Shown here in pieces: positions 1 through 20,000 of a DNA stretch of 20,000 nucleotides (position 1 is its first letter; each line of letters opens with the position of its first letter). The translations under genes and the position numbers were made by a program. The notes beneath the pieces are model-generated. The model did no database searches, was not told the origin of the DNA, and was given only the letters and a program-made list of their open reading frames with translations. Origin of the DNA: an uncultured virus (IMG/VR IMGVR_UViG_3300020057_000040) (lineage: Duplodnaviria > Heunggongvirae > Uroviricota > Caudoviricetes). Location of the stretch: IMG/VR virus record IMGVR_UViG_3300020057_000040; one strand, given 5' to 3'.

Positions 1-418
1 GCAACACATTGATAGAAGCCGAATGATAATTAATATAATTCAAGCTAAAGGAAACAAAGATAGGCAAGTCGGATTAAATGATAAATTGATTAAGTTGTTA
101 GAGGATTATTATAAAGAATATAAACCAAAAGAATATATTTTGAACGGACAGTTTCCTGATAAGCAACTTAAATATTCTGATAGAAGTGTTGGAGAAGTTA
201 TCAAACAATTAGCTAAAAAATCAGGGATAACTAAAGGTGTTCACACACATTTAATTAGACATTGTTCTGCAACACACATGGTAGAATCGGGTGTTGATAT
301 TAATTTAATTCAAAAACTTTTAGGTCATGGGTCTGTTAAGACTACTAATATTTATTTACATATTTCGCATAATCACATCTCTAAAATACAATCTCTATTA
401 CAAAAAATTAGTTTATAG
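1..418 (+). CDS. Tyrosine recombinase/integrase, C-terminal catalytic part (5' truncated by window edge)
   Basis: Frame is open from base 2 (QHIDRSRMIINIIQAKGNKDRQV). Catalytic motifs: KGxKxR, HLIRH (H-x-x-R) and LLGH...TTNIY (catalytic Tyr). Confidence 0.93.
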   Translation, partial: QHIDRSRMIINIIQAKGNKDRQVGLNDKLIKLLEDYYKEYKPKEYILNGQFPDKQLKYSDRSVGEVIKQLAKKSGITKGVHTHLIRHCSATHMVESGVDINLIQKLLGHGSVKTTNIYLHISHNHISKIQSLLQKISL

Positions 419-422
419 AAAT

Positions 423-1625
423 ATGAAAAAAATAAAAATAATTGTTGGCTTAAATTTTGGTGATGAAGGAAAAGGATTAACAGTATCGTATCTTTGTAAC
501 CAATCTAAAAACCCTTTAGTAATTCGTTTCTCAGGTGGACAACAAGCAGGTCATACAGTTGTTCACGAAGGAAATCGTCATGTGTTCTCAAATTTCGGTA
601 GCGGTACAATGCAAGGTCATCCGACTTATTGGAGTGAGTATTGCACTTTCAGTCCGCTCGGTGTTTTGAATGAACACAACGCCTTGAAAAAAATAAAAGG
701 TTTAGAACCTAAATTATTTGTTCATCCTTTATGTCCCGTTACTACACCTTATGACCGTGTGTTTAATTGTCAGTTGGAAAAATCAAATCAACACGGCTCT
801 TGCGGTGTCGGTGTAGGTTCAACAATCCAAAGGCAAGAAGATTATTATAAACTTTTTGTTCAGGATTTATTTCACGAAAACGTATTAATTCAAAAATTGC
901 AAAATATAAAAAATTATTATGCAAAGAAACTTGCTATTTCAAACCCATACATTGATGAAAAAATGGGTGTGAATATGGATGATTTTATTCACATAGTTAA
1001 TGAAGTGAAAAAAATTATTACTGTTGATAATGGTAGTGAACTTTTATCACAGAATGGTTACGATTTAATTTTTGAAGGTTCACAAGGAATTTTGCTTGAC
1101 CAAGATTTCGGTTTCTTTCCTAATGTAACACGTAGTAATACCACTTCAAAAAATGCTCTTTCGATTATCAATAACGATAAATATTTAAGCATGATAAATA
1201 AAAGTGATATTGAAATTTATTATATCACTCGTTCTTATCAAACCCGTCACGGTAACGGTTATATGAGTAACGAAAATTTATTCGGTGAATTGAATTTAAA
1301 AAATAACGAACTCGAAACAAACGTAACAAACGAATGGCAGGGTAATTTCAGAAAATCTGTTTTGGATATAGATTTATTGAAGTACGCTTTTCAATGCGAT
1401 TCAAATTTCTCTCATGGTATAACAAAACATTTAGTTGTAACTTGTGTTGACCAAACGGGAGATATTATTCCTGTAACTATTAATAACGGTGATAATAATA
1501 TTTTATATAATATTCATATCGAAGAATTACCAACCCGTTTACCTGTAAATTTTAAAAATGTTTATATCAGTCGTGGAGATACAACCGATAAGATGTCAGT
1601 TATTTATTTAAATAATCATATATGA
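423..1625 (+). CDS. purA: Adenylosuccinate synthetase-like protein (PurA family)
   Basis: ATG at 423 gives MKKIKIIVGLNFGDEGKG; also RFSGGQQAGHTV, HGSCGVGVG, FEGSQGILLD, FPNVTRSNT and TNVTNEWQGNFR. The ORF-track start at 327 overlaps the integrase and is unlikely. Confidence 0.88.
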   Translation: MKKIKIIVGLNFGDEGKGLTVSYLCNQSKNPLVIRFSGGQQAGHTVVHEGNRHVFSNFGSGTMQGHPTYWSEYCTFSPLGVLNEHNALKKIKGLEPKLFVHPLCPVTTPYDRVFNCQLEKSNQHGSCGVGVGSTIQRQEDYYKLFVQDLFHENVLIQKLQNIKNYYAKKLAISNPYIDEKMGVNMDDFIHIVNEVKKIITVDNGSELLSQNGYDLIFEGSQGILLDQDFGFFPNVTRSNTTSKNALSIINNDKYLSMINKSDIEIYYITRSYQTRHGNGYMSNENLFGELNLKNNELETNVTNEWQGNFRKSVLDIDLLKYAFQCDSNFSHGITKHLVVTCVDQTGDIIPVTINNGDNNILYNIHIEELPTRLPVNFKNVYISRGDTTDKMSVIYLNNHI

Positions 1626-2770: not shown

Positions 2771-3745
2771 TTAAGATATTTTTTCAATTGTCATGTGTGA
2801 TGATATTGCGTGAGTACCTGAACCACCTGCTGCTATTGTTAATGCCGTTGGGTTTCCAATAGCATTTGCAATCCTTACTAATTGATTCGGTATAGTTGTA
2901 GTTACATAAGCTGAACCAATTATTTGACTTGCTCCAACAGCACGACCAAATAATGTTGAATCAGATGTAGGAACAAAAGATGCCCAAGTTATTCCATTAT
3001 CAACTGATGTTTCAATGTTTAATTGTCCCGCTTCTGCAATATTACTAATATTGAATCCAATTTTGTATGTGCCTACTGTTGTAATTTGAACACTATCTTT
3101 TCTAACTGTCGGTTGAGTGAAAACACCACCTGAATTAATTGTAAATCTTGGGAAAGGAATACCTTGATTGATAATACCTGTTGATACAGGAATTGTAGCA
3201 GCGTAATCATCAGCCCCACCATTCCCTGTTCCTGCCGTCAATCCAAAGAAATCAGCAATAGCACTTGAACCACCACCGAAAGTAATATTAGTTCTTTTGT
3301 TTTCGGGGTCATTTGTAACCGTAGCACCAATGAAATTTAAATTTGGTTGTTGAGGTAAGGCAGTACCACCACTCTGAACACCAACACCACCACCACCACT
3401 ACCTGCGATATTTGTTACTAATTCCCAATCGTTATCTCCAACAGGAACGATAGTTCCAATAATTCCGTTTGAAGATAATACTACTGTTGCGCTTCCACTA
3501 ATTTTATCACCATCTTGTGCGATAATAGTAATGTTGTTTGTACCTGACATACTGTAAACGTCAACGAATCTTATCCCGCTATAAGCAGAAAAAGAACCGT
3601 ATTGTCCTGCAATATATTTGTAAAGAGTTTCAAGTTTTGGTAATTGCAGACTAACTGCTCCTGTTCTCGTATCAATGTTTAGCTTGAACTCAGATAATGA
3701 CATCTCGTTAAAACCCGCTCCAATTGTTCTTGTTATATTGTCCAT
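2771..3745 (-). CDS. Gly/Thr-rich putative virion structural or fibre-like protein
   Basis: 324 aa with beta-rich composition, GSGGGG linkers and an LNFIGATVTND segment typical of phage fibre-like proteins. Function inferred from composition only. Confidence 0.55.
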   Translation of the reverse strand: MDNITRTIGAGFNEMSLSEFKLNIDTRTGAVSLQLPKLETLYKYIAGQYGSFSAYSGIRFVDVYSMSGTNNITIIAQDGDKISGSATVVLSSNGIIGTIVPVGDNDWELVTNIAGSGGGGVGVQSGGTALPQQPNLNFIGATVTNDPENKRTNITFGGGSSAIADFFGLTAGTGNGGADDYAATIPVSTGIINQGIPFPRFTINSGGVFTQPTVRKDSVQITTVGTYKIGFNISNIAEAGQLNIETSVDNGITWASFVPTSDSTLFGRAVGASQIIGSAYVTTTIPNQLVRIANAIGNPTALTIAAGGSGTHAISSHMTIEKIS

Positions 3746-3932
3746 GTTTTATATATTTTTTAAATTATAATTATTTAATTTTAAGTATAATAAAGGTATC
3801 TTTTAAATCAATGTACACTAAAAGTTTATGTTTGAGTAAACTGACGTGTAATAACAGCAGATTAAACAATGTTAATGATAATTAATTAGACTGATTTTCA
3901 ATTACTTAAATATTATTTTTAAAATAAATTTT

Positions 3933-3960
3933 TTTGTTAGGAATTAATAATTTAGTTTTG
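3933..3960 (+). promoter_or_regulatory. Bacteroidota-type housekeeping promoter (-33 TTTG / -7 TAnnTTTG) driving the leader and tRNA array
   Basis: TTTG at 3933-3936 and TAGTTTTG at 3953-3960, 7 nt upstream of the leader ATG (3968). Confidence 0.6.
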
Positions 3961-3967
3961 TGTCATT

Positions 3968-4039
3968 ATGAAGAATTTGAGTTTACATAGTTTATCGTAT
4001 CTGTACCTGTTAAAAGGTTCGGGTGATTCTCTATTGTAA
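3968..4039 (+). CDS. Putative attenuator leader peptide MKNLSLHSLSYLYLLKGSGDSLL
   Basis: 23 codons, 16 of them Leu/Ser/His/Tyr, including 12 consecutive ones. These match the six downstream tRNAs. Followed by a terminator. Not in the ORF track because it is too short. Confidence 0.75.
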   Translation: MKNLSLHSLSYLYLLKGSGDSLL

Positions 4040-4072
4040 ACATTATGATATAAAAATAATTAACTTACACGG

Positions 4073-4110
4073 AAAACCCTGAACCTAAAAAGTTCGGGGT
4101 TTTTTGTTTT
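4073..4110 (+). terminator. Intrinsic terminator (attenuator) upstream of the tRNA array
   Basis: Stem AAAACCCTGAAC (4073-4084) / GTTCGGGGTTTT (4092-4103), 7-nt loop, then a U-tract. The 5' arm can alternatively pair with AGGTTCGGG (4015-4023). Confidence 0.85.
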
Positions 4111-4140
4111 GTACTAATTCGTTCTTTAAAAAAAATATAT

Positions 4141-4215
4141 GGTGTTATTAGCTCAGTTGGTTAGAGTGCCTGATTGTGGTTCAGGAGGTCGTGGGGTCGT
4201 AGCCCACATAATACC
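4141..4215 (+). tRNA. tRNA-His (GTG)
   Basis: G-1, acceptor GTGTTAT/ATAATAC, discriminator C; anticodon arm CCTGA-TT-GTG-GT-TCAGG; atypical T-loop GTCGTAG. Confidence 0.88.
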
Positions 4216-4220
4216 CAAAA

Positions 4221-4313
4221 GGAGAAGTACCCAAGTTGGTTAAGGGGGCAGTTTGCTAAACTGTTAGGTCGTGTAAAAACGATGCGTGAGTTCGAGCCTC
4301 ACTTTCTCCGCCA
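4221..4313 (+). tRNA. tRNA-Ser (GCT)
   Basis: Acceptor GGAGAAG/TTTCTCC; anticodon arm GCAGT-TT-GCT-AA-ACTGT; long variable arm; TTCGAG T-loop; encoded G73-CCA. Confidence 0.93.
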
Positions 4314-4346
4314 AGAGTAAAAATGTTCTTTGAAAATGAATTTATT

Positions 4347-4429
4347 GGAGGGATGCGACCAACGGTGGTCAACTGCGTTTGAAGCGCAGGGCGGTCTTTA
4401 CGGACAGGGTTCGATTCCTAATCTCTCCG
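4347..4429 (+). tRNA. tRNA-Ser (TGA), non-canonical fold with 8-bp acceptor stem and short T-stem
   Basis: GGAGGGAT/ATCTCTCC pairing (8 bp); anticodon arm CTGCG-TT-TGA-AG-CGCAG; long variable arm; GGG-TTCGATT-CCT T-arm; G discriminator. Confidence 0.75.
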
Positions 4430-4443
4430 CAAAAATTAAATAA

Positions 4444-4527
4444 GGGAGTTTATCCAAGTGGTCAACGGGGACAGACTGTAAATCTGTTGGCTTTATGCCT
4501 TCGTAGGTTCAAATCCTACAACTCCCA
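4444..4527 (+). tRNA. tRNA-Tyr (GTA)
   Basis: Acceptor GGGAGTT/AACTCCC; anticodon arm ACAGA-CT-GTA-AA-TCTGT; T-arm GTAGG-TTCAAAT-CCTAC. Confidence 0.93.
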
Positions 4528-4540
4528 CAAAAATAAATAT

Positions 4541-4627
4541 GCCGATATGGTGAAATTGGACAAAGACACAACAGACTTAAAATCTGTCGCCTTCAATGGC
4601 ATCCCGATTCGAGTTCGGGTATCGGTA
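4541..4627 (+). tRNA. tRNA-Leu (TAA)
   Basis: Acceptor GCCGATA/TATCGGT; anticodon arm ACAGA-CT-TAA-AA-TCTGT; T-arm CCCGA-TTCGAGT-TCGGG; long D-loop. Confidence 0.88.
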
Positions 4628-4641
4628 CAAAAAATAAATAT

Positions 4642-4727
4642 GCGGGTATGGCGAAACTGGCTGATACGCACCTGTTTTAGAAACAGACGCTTTAAATGGC
4701 ATAAGGGTTCGACTCCCTTTACCCGCA
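4642..4727 (+). tRNA. tRNA-Leu (TAG)
   Basis: Acceptor GCGGGTA/TACCCGC; anticodon loop TT-TAG-AA closed by CTGT/ACAG; T-arm AAGGG-TTCGACT-CCCTT. Confidence 0.88.
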
Positions 4728-4809
4728 CAAAATAAAAATAGGTAACTATATATCTATTGGGACAAGGTTTAAAATTTTTAAGCCGTTTTTGTAGGAAATA
4801 ACAAACATT

Positions 4810-5310
4810 TTATTTTTTCACATACTTTTCTTTGTATTCTTGTTTAAGTTCTTCTTCGAGTTCAAACATCTTATCCCACTCAGGTAATTTTCTTAAATCA
4901 TCACGGCTTCCATTATCCCATAAAAAATGTTGGTTATACGTAATTAATTTTATATTTGGTTCATATAACTTGAATAATGGGTATCTGTTTTCTGCCTTTG
5001 GTAATACGTGTGAAAAATTACTAACACTAAATTTATAAATTGGTTCACCGTTAATAAATGATATGTGTTCCTTCATACTCTCCCACATGGATTGCATGAG
5101 TTGTAATTCTCCTGTCGGTACTCTTTTATAAGTTATAGGACTTTTCTTTAACTGTTTATAAACTTTCTTTGGCTTATCCTTATTTTTTTCTATTAATTTC
5201 TTTCTTTTTTCACCTGCATAATGATAACCGCATAACGGTGGATTTCGTTTTGATAATCGTTTTACTTTATCGTCTGTACACATACTGCATACACCTTCCA
5301 TTATTATCAT
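4810..5310 (-). CDS. Putative HNH-like (NinG/Ref-like) nuclease-fold protein
   Basis: N-terminal CxxC...CxxH; C-terminal FSHVLPK...NIKLI...QHFLWD resembles a degenerate H-N-H motif. Confidence 0.5.
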   Translation of the reverse strand: MIIMEGVCSMCTDDKVKRLSKRNPPLCGYHYAGEKRKKLIEKNKDKPKKVYKQLKKSPITYKRVPTGELQLMQSMWESMKEHISFINGEPIYKFSVSNFSHVLPKAENRYPLFKLYEPNIKLITYNQHFLWDNGSRDDLRKLPEWDKMFELEEELKQEYKEKYVKK

Positions 5311-6845: not shown

Positions 6846-7325
6846 TTATTTTTTTAGTTTATTATTAATAAAAACATATTCAGCGTGTGAAAGTGCTTGA
6901 TGGTATTTTTTAACCGACTTAATGAAACCAAAGAAAGCCATTTTGCTAACACCAACATATTCGTTACCATAATCCAAAGGTTCTCTTTCTGTTTTAGGAA
7001 ATATTTTTTCCGTGTTAGAATCCATAGAGTTTTTAAGCAACTCGTATTCGGCTGCATTTAAAGCAAAGTGATATTTATTCATAACAGATAATAAGTGTTT
7101 AAAACTATTACCTGAATCAAACTTCTTTTTGTAAATACCATCTTTAACTCTATTCCTAACAGGAAATATTTTTATTGATTCCATTGCTTCTGTAATTTTA
7201 TCAACTTTTTTTTCTACTGCTTCTGCCATCTTACGAAGCAACTCCAAAGTTTCAGGTGAACAATTGGGACTGACTGTTGCAACTGACTTTGAAGTTACCC
7301 GTATATGGCGGTGGTCATCAAACAT
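6846..7325 (-). CDS. Hypothetical protein with short internal repeat
   Basis: Start overlaps the NAMPT-like stop (TAATG); KYHFALNAAEY and KYHQALSHAEY repeat. Confidence 0.65.
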   Translation of the reverse strand: MFDDHRHIRVTSKSVATVSPNCSPETLELLRKMAEAVEKKVDKITEAMESIKIFPVRNRVKDGIYKKKFDSGNSFKHLLSVMNKYHFALNAAEYELLKNSMDSNTEKIFPKTEREPLDYGNEYVGVSKMAFFGFIKSVKKYHQALSHAEYVFINNKLKK

Positions 7326-8842
7326 TAATCTAATTTTTTTATTCGTTCACGTATTTGCTCTAAAGTAGTTTCATTAAAAAATTTACCATCTTCATAAATT
7401 ACTTTAAGCATACCTTTAGATTCTTCTTCGTGAGTACATTGAGTTTTTACCTCATAGTTTTCTGTAACCTGAATCAATCCTTTTAAAGATTTTTTAGTTC
7501 CGTCATCAGTTATAGGGTCTTTATAAATATCGTACTCTTTACCATCGGCTTCAAACCACGCTCCTTTAGCAGCGAAACCTAGTGAATCCCTTGTAACATA
7601 TCTGTATGTATAAGAACCAACACCTAAAACAATATTTGTTGAAGCAAATCCTTTAGCAGCTAACCTTTCATAAATTTTAATCTGTCTGTCTAAGGTTATA
7701 GAATCACCATACAGTACGCCAATGTGAGGGTCAAGAACTTTGTAACCTTGATTATTTATAGTACCACCGAATATATCCCAAAGTAATTCTATAACGCCTT
7801 TACAGGCAGGAATATCCTTATCAGCTATTGGACTGTCTTTCATAAATCTATTATCTAAAGTAAAATACTTTCCATCTTCTACAATAAATTCTTCATGTCC
7901 ACAAATAATATCAATAGGATTACCACTATCAGGACGGATAACTAATTTACCATCACGACCCATAATTTCAGATTTCAAGGCAATCAAATAAACGGTAATT
8001 AATTTCCACAAATCGAATGTGTCTGCTACGATAGATAAAATACCTTTATCAAATTCTTTTAACCAATCTGCTATCATTTGTTGTTCTCCTACTGTAAATA
8101 TCTTTGTGGTAGATACAGAGTGTTCAGAAGCGTTAACTGAATTAATACAAACTTTATCTTCGGGTTCACCGTAGAAATATCTTGCTGCAAGAATTACAAT
8201 TAATGTATCAGAACCCCTGTGGCTTGTTGCATGACCCATGCCACTTGAAATCATATCAAATGGCGACATACCCCTTGCGCTAAAATCATGGCACATATAA
8301 TCAATGAGCCAAGCATTTGTAGGGTCTGTTTTCATAACCCAATGTTTCGCATTTCTTCTGTATTGTAAAGCCGTTGTTGCTGATGTAGATGAAACCCAAG
8401 CTAAACTTGAAACAATTGTTTCCAAGTATAATGTTAACCACGCAAAACCACTTTTTGTATTTATAAAAGTCATGTGTGGTACGTTAGGGTTTGTTTCTAT
8501 TCCTTCGGGTAAACTTTTTGCTTTAATAGGCAAATAACCGACTTTATGTAATTCTTCAAAATGTGAAGCATTAAAATCCTGCATGAGATATAAACTCATG
8601 TCTTTACCGAATTTCATTGCTTGTTCTAATGGTAGTTTAAAGAAATTTTCCGTAAACTCATCATGTAGCCATCTCCAAGTCAATTGTTGACCGAATGATA
8701 AAATTTTAGTTATGCCTTTGTTAGCGTGTTTGATGCTTCTTGGTATCCAAGTACCGTATAGAAAATTAGTGTTTGGTGCTAACATTCTTTTGTGTCCTAC
8801 TTTATATCCATCGGAATAGTAGAGTGAGTTTGGTCTAAACAT
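7325..8842 (-). CDS. nadV: Nicotinamide phosphoribosyltransferase-family protein (NadV/NAMPT; possibly Namat-type)
   Basis: SDGYKVGH, HDFSARG, SEHSV, SIVADTFD, LVIRPDSG, YGDSIT, GVGSYTY and KDPITDDGTKKSLKG motifs of the NAMPT family. Confidence 0.92.
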   Translation of the reverse strand: MFRPNSLYYSDGYKVGHKRMLAPNTNFLYGTWIPRSIKHANKGITKILSFGQQLTWRWLHDEFTENFFKLPLEQAMKFGKDMSLYLMQDFNASHFEELHKVGYLPIKAKSLPEGIETNPNVPHMTFINTKSGFAWLTLYLETIVSSLAWVSSTSATTALQYRRNAKHWVMKTDPTNAWLIDYMCHDFSARGMSPFDMISSGMGHATSHRGSDTLIVILAARYFYGEPEDKVCINSVNASEHSVSTTKIFTVGEQQMIADWLKEFDKGILSIVADTFDLWKLITVYLIALKSEIMGRDGKLVIRPDSGNPIDIICGHEEFIVEDGKYFTLDNRFMKDSPIADKDIPACKGVIELLWDIFGGTINNQGYKVLDPHIGVLYGDSITLDRQIKIYERLAAKGFASTNIVLGVGSYTYRYVTRDSLGFAAKGAWFEADGKEYDIYKDPITDDGTKKSLKGLIQVTENYEVKTQCTHEEESKGMLKVIYEDGKFFNETTLEQIRERIKKLD

Positions 8843-13583: not shown

Positions 13584-14549
13584 TTAATCATACAAATCAA
13601 TAAAATCTCCAAATGGAATTACTGTAACTAAGTTTCCGTAAGTACCGATTGTATTTTCTACCTTGCCTATTGATGGTGTTGTGTACACACGCTCAATACC
13701 GCTATCTTTTAAAGAGTTTACGTCTGATGAATTTTCATAATGGCTCACAATTAGATAAATTTTACCTGCATTACGTTTCTTTAATTCTTTTGCTAATCCA
13801 ATAAACGTTCCGCCCTTAGAACAAATATCATCTATAATGACTACATCACGTCCTTCCAAATCCTGTTTATCAACGGTATAAGCTATTATTTTTCCGTCAT
13901 TAAGATTACGGGCTTTATTACATAGGATAATATCGTCTTTGTAATTTAATTCACCTGCTAACTTAAATATTTTTTTGAAAGCACCTGAATCGGGAGAAAC
14001 AAATAACGGGCTACCTTTTAGAGTGGCTTTAAATTCATTTTCACTAACCCCTTTATCATTTTGTGCGTAACCATGAAGACCAACAATGTGAGTTAACGCT
14101 TCATAAACAAACGCTTTGTTACTTATTACATGAATGTTATGTTCTAATAGAGTAGGCGTTATATCCGAATGAGCATCGAGAACAAAAATTCTATGGAACT
14201 CACATGATTTAAGCATATCAGTCACTACCTTCAATGAGAATGGTTCACCATCTACCATAACCCTGTCCTGACGGGCATAAGGCATATATGGCATGAATAA
14301 GTCAATCTTTTCGTAACCCATGCGTTTTAGAGCATCATTAGTTAATAGGATACTAATTAAATCATCCGAGCTATTAGCGTGAGCGTAAATAGTTACTGCG
14401 GTTGTTTCAATTTTAGGTTCGCTGTCTTTAATCTTAACATGGACTTCCCCACCTAAGAAATTAAATTGCTCTGAGGTTAATGCAGATTCAATTGCTTCTC
14501 CATCTTTATTGGTTATTGGAGTGAACCCGTTTATAAATATTGTTTCCAT
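13584..14549 (-). CDS. prs: Ribose-phosphate pyrophosphokinase (PRPP synthetase)-family protein, possibly Adps-type
   Basis: FLGGEVHVKI, MPYMPYARQDRVM..GEPFSLKV, LDAHS, VSPDSGAFKK and VVIIDDICSKGGTF (PRTase motif). Confidence 0.9.
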   Translation of the reverse strand: METIFINGFTPITNKDGEAIESALTSEQFNFLGGEVHVKIKDSEPKIETTAVTIYAHANSSDDLISILLTNDALKRMGYEKIDLFMPYMPYARQDRVMVDGEPFSLKVVTDMLKSCEFHRIFVLDAHSDITPTLLEHNIHVISNKAFVYEALTHIVGLHGYAQNDKGVSENEFKATLKGSPLFVSPDSGAFKKIFKLAGELNYKDDIILCNKARNLNDGKIIAYTVDKQDLEGRDVVIIDDICSKGGTFIGLAKELKKRNAGKIYLIVSHYENSSDVNSLKDSGIERVYTTPSIGKVENTIGTYGNLVTVIPFGDFIDLYD

Positions 14550-16304: not shown

Positions 16305-17372
16305 TTACTCTTTTAATTTAATTTTATTAAAATCCAAATAACGTTCCTGTTCTTTTTTCGGTAATGTTTTTATTGCAGAACTTGAAATATGATTGTAGTT
16401 ACCATCACAGGTAATAAATACAATGGGTATATTACAACCTAAATCTTTTATGTATTGACACATGGTTAATTCATAATCTAAATCTTTAGCGTTCCTTAAA
16501 CCACGAACCAATGTTAGGTTGTCGTAATCCAATCCTTTTATGTAATCAGTAATAAGACCGTGATACATTTCTTGTTGATAATGATTTAAGCACATTGGTA
16601 ACATAGTAAAATCACCATTATTTTTACCCGCATTGATACCACGAGCAAGAATTACTTTATCAAAAATTTGTTCGGCTTTGTCCAATATATTTTTATGTCC
16701 AATGTGAAATGGATTAAAGCTACCTGCAAACACCGCTATCTTTGGTTTTAATGTTTTGAAGTATTCAATTAAATAACAGATGCCTGTGTACTTAGATGTG
16801 TTCCTTAAACCTTCTGCAAGTGTTTCTAATACTTCTAATCTTTTTGTACGGTATGTGTTCCAATCAACGAATTGATACTCTTTAAAAATTTGTTTGTCGT
16901 ATTCTATTATTTCCGAAAATGATTTTTCAAAAATATGCAGGTCTGCATTAATTAGAGATATTGAAAGGCAATAATACGTTTTATTTCGTGTATTGTTTGG
17001 TTTATGTGTTTTTGTATCCATAATCAAATCGTAAATTACCATTCCTTCTGCTGTTTCTCCCTTCCAATCGTTCTTAAATTGTTCGGCAGATTTTTCTTCA
17101 TTATTATTTGCCTTCGGGTCATAAACGTAATCGTGATAAACGGTAGCGATAATTATTTCATCATCCGTTTGTTCCATATCAACCAAATACATTACCATAT
17201 CCTCGATGTGTTTCCAAGTATGATAATGACGATGCGGTTGAGAATAAGCAGCTTCAAATTTAGTTATATCAAAACCCATTTTATGATTTAAAAACGATTG
17301 GCGTATAATCATATAAACTACTTGCTCTTTTGGAGTGTACGTTAATAAATGATTTATTTCTTCTTTTGTCAT
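16305..17372 (-). CDS. Fusion of an HD-like metal-dependent phosphohydrolase and a CoaD/PPAT-like nucleotidyltransferase
   Basis: N-half YSQPHRHYHTWKHI...YHDYVYDPKANNNEEKSA...ADL; C-half AVFAGSFNPFHIGH (HIGH), RGLRNAKDLDYE, ISSSAIK. Confidence 0.82.
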   Translation of the reverse strand: MTKEEINHLLTYTPKEQVVYMIIRQSFLNHKMGFDITKFEAAYSQPHRHYHTWKHIEDMVMYLVDMEQTDDEIIIATVYHDYVYDPKANNNEEKSAEQFKNDWKGETAEGMVIYDLIMDTKTHKPNNTRNKTYYCLSISLINADLHIFEKSFSEIIEYDKQIFKEYQFVDWNTYRTKRLEVLETLAEGLRNTSKYTGICYLIEYFKTLKPKIAVFAGSFNPFHIGHKNILDKAEQIFDKVILARGINAGKNNGDFTMLPMCLNHYQQEMYHGLITDYIKGLDYDNLTLVRGLRNAKDLDYELTMCQYIKDLGCNIPIVFITCDGNYNHISSSAIKTLPKKEQERYLDFNKIKLKE

Positions 17373-18681: not shown

Positions 18682-19053
18682 CTAATGGGTTACCCCTTTT
18701 ATATTAAGATGTTCTTCCACCGCCTGACAAGTAATGTTGAAGAAGAAGCTGGGTGTTACCCCCTTCATATTAAGATGTTCTTCCACCATATCCTTTATAA
18801 AGCCTTGTATTTGCTTGTAGTTCATGCCAAATTGCGATTCAAAAACTGACCAAATATTATGATAATCGCACCATAAATTCGATTTTTCTAATTCTAAAAA
18901 ACACTTTTTATCTTTAATAAAAAATACTGAATCAGGACGTTCTTTTTTAAATGTTTCTGTGTCAATTGTAAGCCCGTTAATCATTTCCAAAAAAACTTCT
19001 TCTTTTGTTTTTTTAGGTATTAGATTTTCAGATTTGTTTTCTTCGTTGCTCAT
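18682..19053 (-). CDS. Array-associated small protein, paralog A
   Basis: Near-identical to the two upstream paralogs; C-terminus encoded by repeat-spacer-repeat (VEEHLNMKGVTP-SFFFNITCQA-VEEHLNIKGVTH). Confidence 0.8.
   Translation of the reverse strand: MSNEENKSENLIPKKTKEEVFLEMINGLTIDTETFKKERPDSVFFIKDKKCFLELEKSNLWCDYHNIWSVFESQFGMNYKQIQGFIKDMVEEHLNMKGVTPSFFFNITCQAVEEHLNIKGVTH
18686..18787 (-). CRISPR. CRISPR-like mini-array A (2 repeats, one 30-nt spacer)
   Basis: Repeats at 18686-18721 (degenerate) and 18752-18787; spacer 18722-18751. Confidence 0.65.
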
Positions 19054-19089
19054 TTTTTTTATATTTTTTAAATTCTTGTTATTTTCTAA

Positions 19090-19259
19090 TGTGTTACCCC
19101 ATTCATATTAAGGTGTTATTCCAACACTTTATGTAACAGGGTAGCGTTGCTTATGCGGTGTTACTCCCTTCATATTAAGATGTTCTTCCACTAGTCACAG
19201 AAAACAGAAGCGGAAATTGAAGTGGTGTTACCCCATTCATATTAAGATGTTCTTCCACC
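19090..19259 (-). CRISPR. CRISPR-like mini-array B (3 repeats, two 31-nt spacers)
   Basis: Repeats at 19090-19125 (degenerate), 19157-19192 and 19224-19259; unique spacers 19126-19156 and 19193-19223. Confidence 0.7.
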
Positions 19260-19579
19260 ATATCCTTTATAAAGTCTTGTATTTGCTTGTAGTTCATGTC
19301 AAATTGCGATTCAAAAACTGACCAAATATTATCATAATCGCACAATAAATCCGATTTTTTTAATTCTAAAAAACACTTTTTATCTTTAATAAAAAACTTA
19401 GAATTAGGATGACTTTTCTTAAATGTTTCCGTGTCAATTGTAAGCCCATTAATCATTTCCAAAAAAACTTCTTCTTTTGTTTTTTTAGGTATTATATTTT
19501 CAGCTTCAATTAATTTTCTTAGTTCGCTAACTTCATTTTCTAATTCGGTTAATCTTTTTTTGTTTTCTTCGCTGCTCAT
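19175..19579 (-). CDS. Array-associated small protein, paralog B (extra N-terminal coiled-coil)
   Basis: Same core as paralog A plus KKRLTELENEVSELRKLIEA; ends inside the second repeat (SGRTS*). Confidence 0.8.
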   Translation of the reverse strand: MSSEENKKRLTELENEVSELRKLIEAENIIPKKTKEEVFLEMINGLTIDTETFKKSHPNSKFFIKDKKCFLELKKSDLLCDYDNIWSVFESQFDMNYKQIQDFIKDMVEEHLNMNGVTPLQFPLLFSVTSGRTS

Positions 19580-19615
19580 TTTTTTTATATTTTTTAAATT
19601 CTTGTTATTTTCTAA

Positions 19616-19850
19616 TGTGTTACCCCTTTTATATTAAGATGTTCTTCCACCCCGTTAGTTTTACTTTCGGCAATGTAATCGGGTGTTACCCCCTTCATAT
19701 TAAGATGTTCTTTCACCATATTTTACTTTCAAAAGTAGATGTAGAACGGGTCTTACCCCCTTCATGTTAAGATGTTCTTCCACCAAGGAGGCATTTAAAG
19801 AATAATAAATTCGGGGTGTTACCCCCTTCATATTAAGATGTTCTTCCACC
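19616..19850 (-). CRISPR. CRISPR-like mini-array C (4 repeats, spacers 30/31/30 nt)
   Basis: Repeats at 19616-19651 (degenerate), 19682-19717, 19749-19784 and 19815-19850; consensus (minus strand) GGTGGAAGAACATCTTAATATGAAGGGGGTAACACC. Confidence 0.75.
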
Positions 19851-20000
19851 ATATCCTTTATAAAGTCTTGTATTTGCTTGTAGTTCATGTCAAATTGCGA
19901 TTCAAAAACTGACCAAATATTATCGTAATCGCACCATAAATCCGATTTTTCTAATTCTAAAAAACACTTTTTATCTTTAATAAAAAACTTAGAATTAGGA
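19700..20000 (-). CDS. Array-associated small protein, paralog C (5' end outside window)
   Basis: Frame is open to the window edge (PNSKFFIKDKKCFLELEKSDLWCDYDNIWSVFESQFDMNYKQ...); the ORF-track start at 19888 is an internal Met. Confidence 0.8.
   Translation of the reverse strand, partial: PNSKFFIKDKKCFLELEKSDLWCDYDNIWSVFESQFDMNYKQIQDFIKDMVEEHLNMKGVTPRIYYSLNASLVEEHLNMKGVRPVLHLLLKVKYGERTS

What the first reader, a model, noticed from the sequence alone, without database searches (positions are those of the whole stretch)
3933..4727. Leader-peptide attenuator whose codons match the downstream phage tRNA array: a tRNA-shortage sensor
Seen: after a Bacteroidota-type promoter comes ATG AAG AAT TTG AGT TTA CAT AGT TTA TCG TAT CTG TAC CTG TTA AAA GGT TCG GGT GAT TCT CTA TTG TAA (3968-4039). 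Codons 4-15 are exclusively Leu/Ser/His/Tyr, and every downstream tRNA is represented: TTA/TTG (Leu-UAA), CTG/CTA (Leu-UAG), AGT (Ser-GCU), TCG (Ser-UGA), CAT (His-GUG), TAT/TAC (Tyr-GUA). Right after this run, AGGTTCGGG (4015-4023) can pair with CCTGAACCT (4078-4086), overlapping the 5' arm of a strong terminator (4073-4110) that sits before the first tRNA. Established: this is the logic of ribosome-mediated attenuation in amino-acid biosynthesis operons (trp, his, ilv). Inference: a ribosome stalled in the run leaves the antiterminator free, so the tRNAs are transcribed only when those host tRNAs are depleted, for example by anticodon-nuclease defences or starvation. I am not aware of this being described for phage tRNA arrays.
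Basis: partly seen in the sequence, partly recalled or inferred. Interest (0 to 1): 0.9.

Follow-up and report, generated by a model that had tools for sequence, protein, structure and literature searches.

The report
Codon-matched leader attenuator gating phage tRNAs
A tiny translated gene written in the very codons that the downstream phage tRNAs read, wired to a stop/go RNA switch, probably lets this phage make those tRNAs when ribosomes decode their codons slowly, a control known for amino-acid genes that my searches did not find described for tRNA genes.

Summary
At 3968-4039 a 23-codon ORF (MKNLSLHSLSYLYLLKGSGDSLL) precedes an intrinsic terminator (4071-4105) and a tRNA array: His, Ser-GCU, Ser-UGA-like, Tyr, Leu-UAA, Leu-UAG.

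Codons 4-15 are all read by those tRNAs. This is the longest such run in any frame of the window, and 0 of 20,000 simulated regions reached it.

I found 15 further distinct homologous leaders in viral, metagenome and MAG contigs. All have three helices:
- a 1:2 hairpin inside the ORF;
- a 2:3 antiterminator (85% of cells paired, 6 of 9 pairs changed on both sides, 0 of 500 shuffles as high);
- a 3:4 terminator.

That is a trp-like four-segment attenuator.

Leader codons follow the arrays. Pro, Gln and Arg codons appear where those tRNAs join the array. Two other leader families match a Pro/Phe/Gln array and a 13-amino-acid array (13 of 13).

Best reading (about 0.8): ribosome stalling on cognate codons lets transcription run into the tRNAs, giving a tRNA-supply feedback loop. 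Translation, read-through and the trigger are untested.

Seven literature searches found no description of this. This scan has noted the same kind of element before on other DNA.

The parts
3933..3936 (+). TTTG, candidate -33 element of a Bacteroidota-type promoter
   Evidence: Read. An AAATAAATTTTG-like stretch recurs about 16-20 nt before the -7 box in relatives. This is a consensus match only.
3953..3960 (+). TAGTTTTG, candidate -7 box. The predicted start of transcription is near 3965, giving a 5'UTR of about 3 nt (near-leaderless mRNA).
   Evidence: Exact TAnnTTTG match, though the motif is not enriched in the window (36 found, 37.4 expected). A box scoring 5-6 of 6 lies 4-8 nt before the ATG in 8 of 16 family-A and 3 of 3 family-B leaders. 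The box sits at -12 to -5 of the start site in Flavobacterium psychrophilum (PMC9723704, passages read). The start site itself is inferred.
3968..4039 (+). Leader ORF, 23 codons plus TAA: MKNLSLHSLSYLYLLKGSGDSLL
   Evidence: The ORF is kept in 16 of 16 distinct homologues at 22-33 codons. For codons 9 to the end, 106 of 215 are cognate in frame, against 34 of 215 and 21 of 215 in the other frames (13 leaders with complete arrays).
3977..4012 (+). Regulatory run: 12 consecutive codons read by the six downstream tRNAs
   Evidence: longest such run in all six frames, and 0 of 20,000 simulations reach 12.
3981..4008 (+). Segment 1: the 5' strand of the 1:2 hairpin, overlapping the codon run and including the conserved TTACATAG
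   Evidence: Minimum-free-energy fold. RNAalifold recovers the helix on 16 sequences, with compensatory changes such as columns 32/65 (AU 6, CG 5) and 47/56 (CG 5, UA 4, AU 3).
4015..4041 (+). Segment 2: the 3' strand of the 1:2 hairpin. Its core at 4015-4023 (AGGTTCGGG) is also the antiterminator strand.
4078..4086 (+). Segment 3 core (CCTGAACCT): part of the terminator 5' arm and loop, pairing alternatively with segment 2
   Evidence: On alignment A1 the 2:3 helix has 85.1% of cells paired, 6 of 9 pairs changed on both sides, and 0 of 500 shuffles as high. Sliding the partner by one column drops pairing to 53%.
4071..4105 (+). Intrinsic terminator (3:4): arms 4071-4084 and 4092-4105, loop 4085-4091, T-tract from 4100
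   Evidence: One search places it at 4069-4107 with 16 pairs. One search gives -17.0 kcal/mol. A terminator is present in 16 of 16 homologues.
4115..4132 (+). Conserved spacer TAATTCGTTCTTTAAAAA, containing the GTTCTTTAA motif at 4121-4129. Role unknown: processing signal or internal promoter.
   Evidence: Identical in the window and L001. The motif lies 10-19 nt before several tRNAs, including between tRNAs.
4142..4216 (+). tRNA-His (GUG)
4221..4313 (+). tRNA-Ser (GCU)
4347..4430 (+). tRNA-Ser (UGA)-like gene, sub-threshold
   Evidence: 24.9 bits, to the tRNA-Sec model only. ARAGORN calls it at 80% thresholds. It folds as a cloverleaf. Relatives have a called Ser-UGA at this place.
4444..4528 (+). 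tRNA-Tyr (GUA)
4541..4628 (+). tRNA-Leu (UAA)
4642..4728 (+). tRNA-Leu (UAG), last gene of the unit. The next gene (4810-5310) is on the other strand.

Best explanation
This is a ribosome-mediated, leader-peptide transcription attenuator that gates a phage tRNA sub-array.

Proposed mechanism:
1. A promoter just upstream makes a nearly leaderless mRNA whose 23-codon ORF is translated at once.
2. Codons 4-15 are those read by the six downstream tRNAs. They also form the 5' strand (segment 1) of a hairpin with segment 2.
3. When decoding is fast, the ribosome passes over segment 2 or lets the 1:2 hairpin re-form. The 3:4 terminator then folds and transcription stops at 4105.
4. When any of these codons is read slowly, because cognate charged tRNA is short, the ribosome sits on segment 1. 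Segment 2 (4015-4023) pairs with the terminator's 5' arm (4078-4086), the terminator cannot form, and RNA polymerase runs into the tRNA genes.
5. The new tRNAs relieve the stall, which closes a negative feedback loop on tRNA supply.

Shown here: the elements, their conservation, helix covariation and codon/anticodon co-variation.

Inferred: translation of the ORF, the start of transcription, the direction of the switch in vivo, and the natural trigger (host tRNA cleavage, host shut-off or starvation).
For: Chance excluded in the window:
- The 12-codon cognate run is the longest in six frames, and 0 of 20,000 simulations reach it.
- 15 of 22 codons are cognate, P = 3e-7, against 3/22 and 0/22 in the other frames.

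Conservation:
- The leader pattern found true homologues with tRNAs directly downstream in 4 of 31 viral loci and 15 of 29 metagenome loci, plus a sixteenth cut off by its contig end (L091), and 1 of 8 genome loci.
- This gives 16 distinct leaders including the window.

Structure:
- All 16 fold into a 1:2 hairpin plus a terminator.
- RNAalifold finds both helices, with 9 of 23 pairs compensatory.
- The 2:3 helix has 85.1% of cells paired, 6 of 9 pairs changed on both sides, and 0 of 500 shuffles as high. Slid controls give 53% or less.
- The 2:3 duplex beats at least 95% of shuffled ORFs in 13 of 16 leaders.
- Terminators of quite different sequence (L032, L033, L069, L079, L082) each have a matching segment 2.

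Switch geometry:
- With a ribosome footprint whose A site lies at codons 4-13, the nascent RNA pairs 7-14 bases of the terminator's 5' arm and the loop next to it with the ORF in all 16 leaders.
- From about codon 15 to the stop this falls to 0 in the window apart from 3 at codon 22, and to 0 in most other leaders.

Codon/anticodon tracking:
- Every array anticodon is represented in 14 of 16 leaders.
- Leaders of arrays that also hold Pro, Gln and, in one case, Arg tRNAs carry those codons: L033 ...SRPYQQ..., L069 ...QPQYQ..., L079 ...TQYPQ....
- Family-B leaders rich in Phe, Pro and Gln precede Pro or Pro/Phe/Gln arrays.
- A family-C leader uses, in its first 24 residues, exactly the 13 amino acids of its 14-tRNA array.
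- Swapping leaders between arrays within a locus gives 15/22 own against 1/22 other for L083_A, and 19/27 against 3/27 for G003_C.

No bypass in compact loci: the T-tract ends 6-9 nt before the first tRNA in L068, L033, L079 and L065.

Leader-peptide attenuation is reported as likely in flavobacteria for amino-acid operons (PMC9723704, passage read).
Against: - There are no expression data. No RNA run holds the DNA, so translation, the transcription start and read-through are all unproven.
- The -7 box motif is as common as chance in this AT-rich window (36 found, 37.4 expected).
- Without a ribosome, the thermodynamic fold of the nascent RNA already prefers the antiterminator in 10 of 16 leaders, including the window. 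Termination in the replete state must therefore rest on kinetics or on ribosome cover of segment 2.
- The window's 1:2 fold alone is only marginally better than shuffles (18 of 300 as good).
- A conserved GTTCTTTRA motif 10-19 nt before the first tRNA and some internal tRNAs could be an internal promoter or processing site.
- The correspondence is imperfect. Lys and Asn codons 2-3 are conserved without such tRNAs in the array. Pro codons occur in four leaders (L065, L071, L078, L084) where no Pro tRNA was seen in the array (L084's is cut by the contig end). They can pair with segment 2 instead, which I read from the sequences.
- L032 has Leu and His codons, but its contiguous array shows only Tyr and Ser tRNAs; the His and Leu tRNAs lie about 0.9 kb further on.
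- The Glu tRNA of G003 is not represented in its leader. Strict-wobble matches are modest in some leaders (9/24 in G001_A, 9/22 in L089).
- The search pattern fixed codons 1-3 and 6-8, and the relatives share ancestry, so the counts are not independent events.
- Not every sub-array has a detectable leader. No qualifying ORF was found before the other terminator-preceded sub-arrays: Ile in L093, Ile/Asn/Asp/Trp in L065 (that locus starts just upstream, so an ORF there could be cut off) and Arg in L068. No leader was seen before the Glu-to-Arg blocks of L065, L068, L081 and L083 either.
Confidence: 0.8

Rival explanations
1. The promoter, small ORF and terminator form a separate short transcription unit (a small protein or small RNA). 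The tRNAs are transcribed from their own start in the 4106-4141 spacer, so the terminator does not gate them.
For: The conserved spacer motif GTTCTTTAA sits 12 nt before tRNA-His and recurs 10-19 nt before other tRNAs, including internal ones. The stop-to-terminator spacing is that of an ordinary small gene.
Against: - No TAnnTTTG box lies on the + strand between 3961 and 4950.
- In L068, L033, L079 and L065 only 6-9 nt separate the T-tract from the first tRNA, and the motif is absent there.
- This reading does not explain why leader codons follow the arrays in three leader families, or why segment 2 co-varies with the terminator's 5' arm.
Confidence: 0.08
2. The region is an untranslated structured 5' leader, serving for example in processing or stability of the tRNA precursor. 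The open frame and its composition are by-products of the hairpin sequence.
For: The most conserved stretches, TTACATAG and CTATTGTAA, pair with each other. Part of the 3' end of the ORF is conserved as nucleotides but read in different frames in the window and L001.
Against: - An ATG-to-stop frame of 22-33 codons is kept in 16 of 16 leaders despite insertions and deletions.
- Ser is kept across codon boxes: AGT in the window, TCA in L001, L032 and L033.
- Cognate codons run at 49% in frame against 16% and 10% out of frame.
- Families B and C have different hairpin sequences, yet their amino-acid sets match their own arrays.
Confidence: 0.05
3. The attenuator is real, but it senses general translation capacity or amino-acid starvation, or simply balances the phage's own tRNA output. 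It is not a response to host anticodon-nuclease defences.
For: The mechanism reads decoding speed and cannot tell cleaved tRNA from uncharged or merely scarce tRNA. Relatives gate sub-arrays covering up to 13 amino acids, which looks like general supply control.
Against: Nothing here separates the triggers. Phage tRNAs are reported to counter tRNA-targeting defences (PMC10264068 and PMC11555353; only the titles and the start of each abstract were seen).
Confidence: 0.4

Closest known systems
Leader-peptide transcription attenuators of amino-acid biosynthesis operons (trpL, hisL, leuL, pheL; the multivalent thrL and ilvL). These are recalled textbook systems. Rfam Thr_leader gave only a sub-threshold hit here.
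   Same: A short ORF with a run of regulatory codons lying in segment 1, alternative 1:2, 2:3 and 3:4 helices, and an intrinsic terminator before the regulated genes. As in ilv and thr, several amino acids are sensed at once.
   Different: The regulated genes are the tRNAs that read the regulatory codons, not enzymes, so the product itself relieves the stall. The element is phage-borne, probably nearly leaderless and of Bacteroidota type. It has no sequence relation to the known families: Thr_leader scored 33.1 bits against a cut-off of 55 and covered only the terminator.
The pheST attenuator of E. coli with the pheM leader (recalled)
   Same: Attenuation by cognate codons controls a component of the decoding machinery for that amino acid.
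   Different: It controls an aminoacyl-tRNA synthetase, senses one amino acid, and is cellular. Here tRNA genes themselves are controlled, for four to thirteen amino acids.
T-box riboswitches (recalled)
   Same: They sense tRNA status and act through a terminator/antiterminator choice.
   Different: A T-box binds uncharged tRNA directly, without translation, and controls synthetase, amino-acid biosynthesis and transport genes. No T-box match appeared in the Rfam scan at E up to 1, and the present element depends on an ORF.
Phage tRNA arrays as codon compensation or counter-defence (PMC10264068 and PMC11555353; titles and the start of each abstract seen)
   Same: The same class of cargo, phage-encoded tRNAs thought to replace depleted host tRNAs.
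   Different: Going by their titles and the start of their abstracts, those papers concern what the tRNAs do. I saw nothing in them about a sensor controlling tRNA transcription.

Membership tests
Ribosome-mediated (leader-peptide) transcription attenuator | Short ORF with a run of codons for the sensed amino acid(s) | tested here: met
   23-codon ORF with 12 consecutive cognate codons, 0 of 20,000 simulations as long. Kept in 16 of 16 homologues.
Ribosome-mediated (leader-peptide) transcription attenuator | Intrinsic terminator between the leader ORF and the regulated genes | tested here: met
   Terminator at 4069-4107, -17.0 kcal/mol. Present in 16 of 16 homologues.
Ribosome-mediated (leader-peptide) transcription attenuator | Antiterminator helix (2:3) mutually exclusive with the terminator | tested here: met
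   4015-4023 pairs with 4078-4086. On the alignment 85.1% of cells are paired, 6 of 9 pairs are changed on both sides, and 0 of 500 shuffles are as high. The duplex is better than all 300 shuffles in the window.
Ribosome-mediated (leader-peptide) transcription attenuator | Segment 1 carrying the regulatory codons pairs with segment 2 (anti-antiterminator) | tested here: met
   A 1:2 hairpin appears in all 16 minimum-free-energy folds and in the RNAalifold consensus, with compensatory pairs. In the window alone it is only marginal against shuffles (18 of 300 as good).
Ribosome-mediated (leader-peptide) transcription attenuator | The leader is translated, and read-through rises when cognate charged tRNA is short | not testable with these tools
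   No RNA run holds the DNA. Only in-silico footprint modelling is available.
Ribosome-mediated (leader-peptide) transcription attenuator | Regulated genes are functionally tied to the sensed codons | tested here: met
   6 of 6 array anticodons are represented in the window's leader, and all anticodons in 14 of 16 leaders. Leader codons co-vary with array content.
Rfam Thr_leader (RF00506) | Score at or above the gathering cut-off of 55 bits | tested here: not met
   33.1 bits at 4040-4108, covering the terminator part only.
T-box riboswitch | Match to the T-box covariance model, with specifier loop and T-box sequence | tested here: not met
   No T-box match among the 11 Rfam matches at E up to 1 in 3500-5000.

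The most novel reading that the evidence does not exclude
Phages of this group organise their tRNA genes into modules. Each module sits behind a leader ORF spelled in the codons its tRNAs read, with a terminator/antiterminator switch. The phage thus measures codon by codon whether the infected cell can still decode, and tops up exactly the tRNA set that is limiting. This would be a product-feedback tRNA homeostat that could also serve as an automatic countermeasure to tRNA-cleaving defences.
Probability: 0.6. Interest if true: 0.9.

Novelty: new variant of a known kind. Interest (0 to 1): 0.85.

Why it matters
Why phages carry tRNAs, and how those genes are controlled, remains an open question. 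Current ideas are codon compensation and escape from tRNA-targeting defences.

If this switch works as proposed, expression of the tRNAs is conditional on decoding trouble at the very codons they read. That would favour the replacement or rescue role over simple constitutive codon supplementation.

It would also extend a classic bacterial control logic to non-coding RNA genes, to phages and to Bacteroidota-type hosts. In practical terms it would provide natural, compact, multi-codon sensors of tRNA availability that could be used as reporters.

Tried and rejected
- Own genome: none is held.
- Relatives through the flanking 324-aa protein: none found.
- Exact 39-base start of tRNA-His in viral contigs: none found.
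- 18-base spacer motif: 30 loci, of which only the one on L001's own contig was a true homologue.
- Terminator-plus-spacer pattern: found only that same contig.
- Cultured phages: blastn matched only individual tRNAs. SSB and the PurZ-like protein reach only about 33-40% identity to phages of many different hosts, so they say nothing about the host.
One had a tRNA within 300 nt, and it was not a leader.
- Expression: no RNA holder was listed. The DNA is held by microbial-mat metagenome runs, and none was laid.
- Rfam: Thr_leader, ohsC and MicC matches at 4006-4115 are all below their cut-offs and cover the terminator. I rejected them as family assignments.
- Further leaders: candidates before Arg-UCU (an Arg-rich ORF) and before Glu (a Glu-rich ORF running into the tRNA) lack a canonical terminator and were not counted.
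- Promoter: the -7 box cannot be called from the window alone, because the motif is at chance frequency.
- Earlier notes of this scan: none resembles this stretch by sequence.
Full report
**What is in the window**

An ATG at 3968 opens a 23-codon frame, MKNLSLHSLSYLYLLKGSGDSLL, ending at TAA 4037-4039.
- A strong intrinsic terminator follows. One search places it at 4069-4107. In the folds its arms are 4071-4084 and 4092-4105.
- After a 36-nt spacer comes a same-strand tRNA array. ARAGORN and Rfam call His-GUG, Ser-GCU, Tyr-GUA, Leu-UAA and Leu-UAG.
It scores 24.9 bits, to the tRNA-Sec model only, and ARAGORN calls it only at 80% thresholds. It folds as a cloverleaf, and relatives have a normally called Ser-UGA at that place.
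- The upstream gene (2771-3745) and the downstream gene (4810-5310) are on the other strand. The unit therefore holds only the leader and the tRNAs.
- The surrounding genes are phage-like: an integrase fragment, a PurZ/PurA-like synthetase, NadV, a Prs-like protein, SSB and an HNH endonuclease.

**Is it more than chance?**

- Codons 4-15 all belong to the 12 codons read, under strict wobble, by the six anticodons. This is the longest such run in all six frames of the window (next longest 7).
- None of 20,000 Markov simulations of the 396-nt upstream region reached 12.
- Over the whole ORF, 15 of 22 codons are cognate against a background of 0.18 (P = 3e-7). The other two frames give 3/22 and 0/22.
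- The proposed antiterminator pairing, 4015-4023 with 4078-4086, gives a best duplex of -17.1 kcal/mol, against -9.1 +/- 2.3 for shuffled ORFs. None of 300 shuffles was as good.

**Relatives**

- Protein and exact-DNA anchors gave one homologous locus, L001, on a 169.7-kb viral contig.
- Comparing it with the window gave a leader pattern that fixes only codons 1-3 and 6-8.
- That pattern found loci with tRNAs directly downstream in 4 of 31 viral loci and 15 of 29 metagenome loci, plus a sixteenth copy cut off by its contig end (L091), and 1 of 8 genome loci. The genome locus is a contig binned with a Bacteroidia MAG. The remaining loci were chance matches without tRNAs.
- Counting the window, this gives 16 distinct leader sequences.

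**Architecture**

- In all 16, the full-length minimum-free-energy fold is a long hairpin inside the ORF plus the terminator.
- In that hairpin, segment 1 is the codon run and includes the conserved TTACATAG. Segment 2 is GGTTCRGG through the conserved CTATTGTAA at the stop.
- RNAalifold recovers both helices on a plain MAFFT alignment, and 9 of 23 pairs carry compensatory changes.
- For the 2:3 antiterminator helix on the same alignment, 85.1% of cells pair and 6 of 9 pairs are changed on both sides. None of 500 shuffles is as high on the percentage paired, the number of such pairs or the covariation score. Sliding the partner by one column drops pairing to 53%.
- Terminators of quite different sequence (L032, L033, L069, L079) each have a matching segment 2. 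In L082 one base pair is missing from segment 2 and from both terminator arms together.
- This is the classical four-segment layout.

**Codons follow the arrays**

- In 14 of 16 leaders every array anticodon has at least one cognate codon.
- In the part of the leaders that the search pattern did not fix (codon 9 to the end, 13 leaders with complete arrays), 106 of 215 codons are cognate in frame. The other frames give 34 and 21 of 215.
- Three lineages whose contiguous arrays also carry Pro and Gln tRNAs (and Arg-ACG in L033) have those codons in the run: SRPYQQ, QPQYQ and TQYPQ.
- My hand count and the arrays set out, over the 13 complete arrays: Gln codons with a Gln tRNA in 3 leaders, Gln codons without one in 1 (L001), neither in 9.
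- A scan for terminators lying close upstream of tRNAs found two further leader families.
- Family B: QQFFPQQPQF, FSFPFQQFPQ and FFQFQQPQF precede Pro or Pro/Phe/Gln arrays. They have the same 1:2 and 2:3 switch.
- Family C: in one 42-kb contig, MMMNNWFNIIDTAFATRNCGKVGI... precedes Ala, Asp, Asn, Trp, Thr, Arg, Met, Lys, Ile, Met, Phe, Val, Gly and Cys tRNAs. The 13 amino acids of the array are exactly the 13 used in the leader's first 24 residues. The Trp tRNA was missed by default ARAGORN.
- Swapping leaders between arrays within a locus gives 15/22 own against 1/22 other for L083_A, 19/27 against 3/27 for G003_C, and 11/29 against 4/29 for G001_B.

**Start of the transcript**

- A TAnnTTTG box lies at 3953-3960. 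The motif alone means little here, because it is at chance frequency in the window.
- However, a box scoring 5-6 of 6 sits 4-8 nt before the ATG in 8 of 16 family-A leaders and 3 of 3 family-B leaders.
- In Flavobacterium psychrophilum this box lies at -12 to -5 of mapped start sites (PMC9723704, passages read).
- That puts the start near 3965, three bases before the AUG, so the mRNA is predicted to be nearly leaderless. This is inference.

**How it most likely works**

- I modelled a ribosome footprint on the nascent RNA at the point where the 5' arm has been made and the 3' arm has not.
- With the A site at codons 4-13, 7-14 bases of the terminator's 5' arm and the loop next to it pair with the ORF in all 16 leaders.
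- From about codon 15 to the stop this falls to zero in the window apart from 3 at codon 22, and to zero in most others.
- The stretch where stalling would give antitermination thus coincides with the cognate run.
- The reading is that slow decoding of any of these codons gives read-through into the tRNAs. The new tRNAs then restore fast decoding and termination, which makes a feedback loop.

**Against this reading, or left open**

- No RNA data exist for this DNA.
- Without a ribosome, thermodynamics already favours the antiterminator in 10 of 16 leaders, including the window. The off state therefore depends on co-transcriptional kinetics or on ribosome cover.
- A conserved GTTCTTTRA motif lies 10-19 nt before the first tRNA and some internal tRNAs. 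It might be a promoter or a processing site. Loci with only 6-9 nt between the T-tract and the first tRNA lack it.
- The correspondence has exceptions: the conserved Lys and Asn codons 2-3, stray Pro codons, the Leu and His codons of L032, and a Glu tRNA that is not represented.
- Several sub-arrays have no detectable leader.
- The relatives are not independent samples.

**Comparison with what is known, and novelty**

- The element works like the trp, his, leu, thr and ilv attenuators (recalled) and meets every structural criterion I could test.
- It is not a member of any Rfam family. Thr_leader scored 33.1 bits against a cut-off of 55, and there was no T-box match.
- Seven full-text searches found no account of leader-peptide attenuation of tRNA genes. 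From those papers I saw only listings and the start of abstracts, except PMC9723704, where I read passages.
- This scan's own earlier notes describe the same kind of element before phage tRNA arrays in at least 71 other genomes. None resembles this locus by sequence. I formed my reading before seeing them and did not test them.

**Verdict**

This is a real, conserved feature. It is a new variant of a known regulatory kind and is of high interest.

Noticed in passing
window 4121-4129 and 4325-4333; L093, L078, L089, L071 and others: A motif GTTCTTTRA(AA) lies 10-19 nt before several tRNA 5' ends, both after the attenuator terminator and between tRNAs. It occurs only once elsewhere in the window (17525, as the variant GTTCATTGA). 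It could be a processing signal or a tRNA-specific promoter.
   Followed up: partly
L093 (G001 contig), gaps between tRNA sub-arrays: ORFs with paired-cysteine motifs that look HNH/zinc-finger-like to my eye (not searched) sit between tRNA groups, for example between Pro and Phe/Gln. They split arrays that are contiguous in relatives such as L083. This looks like invasion of the tRNA region by homing endonucleases.
   Followed up: no
L093 5815-5877 and L083 1270-1335 (coordinates in the array's orientation, as): A conserved short ORF ending in Arg-rich codons (MLTTRHIKTFFTSRRLRRGR and MLVTRHIRFSFSFSELRRSRR) lies directly before tRNA-Arg(UCU), but there is no canonical terminator. It may be another kind of leader.
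   Followed up: no
L093 3644-3699 and L065 about 728-763 (array orientation): A conserved Glu/Asp-rich ORF (MKTKLEKTESDEAFEV... and MKTLNTKSDEPAEQ...) runs into tRNA-Glu without an intervening terminator.
   Followed up: no
window 327-1625 (+): A 432-aa adenylosuccinate-synthetase-like protein matches the PHROG annotated as '2-aminooxy adenylosuccinate synthetase' (E = 2.4e-63). That label made me recall PurZ, so the phage might use a modified purine. I did not distinguish PurZ from PurA.
   Followed up: no
window 7325-8842, 13584-14549 and 16305-17372 (all -): NadV-like nicotinamide phosphoribosyltransferase, a Prs-like pyrophosphokinase, and a phosphohydrolase with a cytidylyltransferase/NMNAT-like domain lie together. 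This is a NAD-salvage or NAD-rebuilding gene set, reminiscent (from memory) of phage counter-measures to NAD-depleting defences.
   Followed up: no
window 18682-19999 (-): Three tandem paralogous small ORFs share the block ...FFIKDKKCFLELEKS...WSVFESQF.MNYKQIQ.FIKDMVEEHLNMKGVTP...
   Followed up: no
L069 and L086, 878-1234: ARAGORN calls a permuted tmRNA-like gene (tag peptide ...PAMRMAA*) about 570 nt upstream of the leader in this phage lineage.
   Followed up: no
L094 (G003), 2709-2722 in array orientation: The family-C leader starts only 14 nt after tRNA-Glu and has no promoter box of its own. This attenuator would therefore act inside a running polycistronic tRNA transcript.
   Followed up: partly
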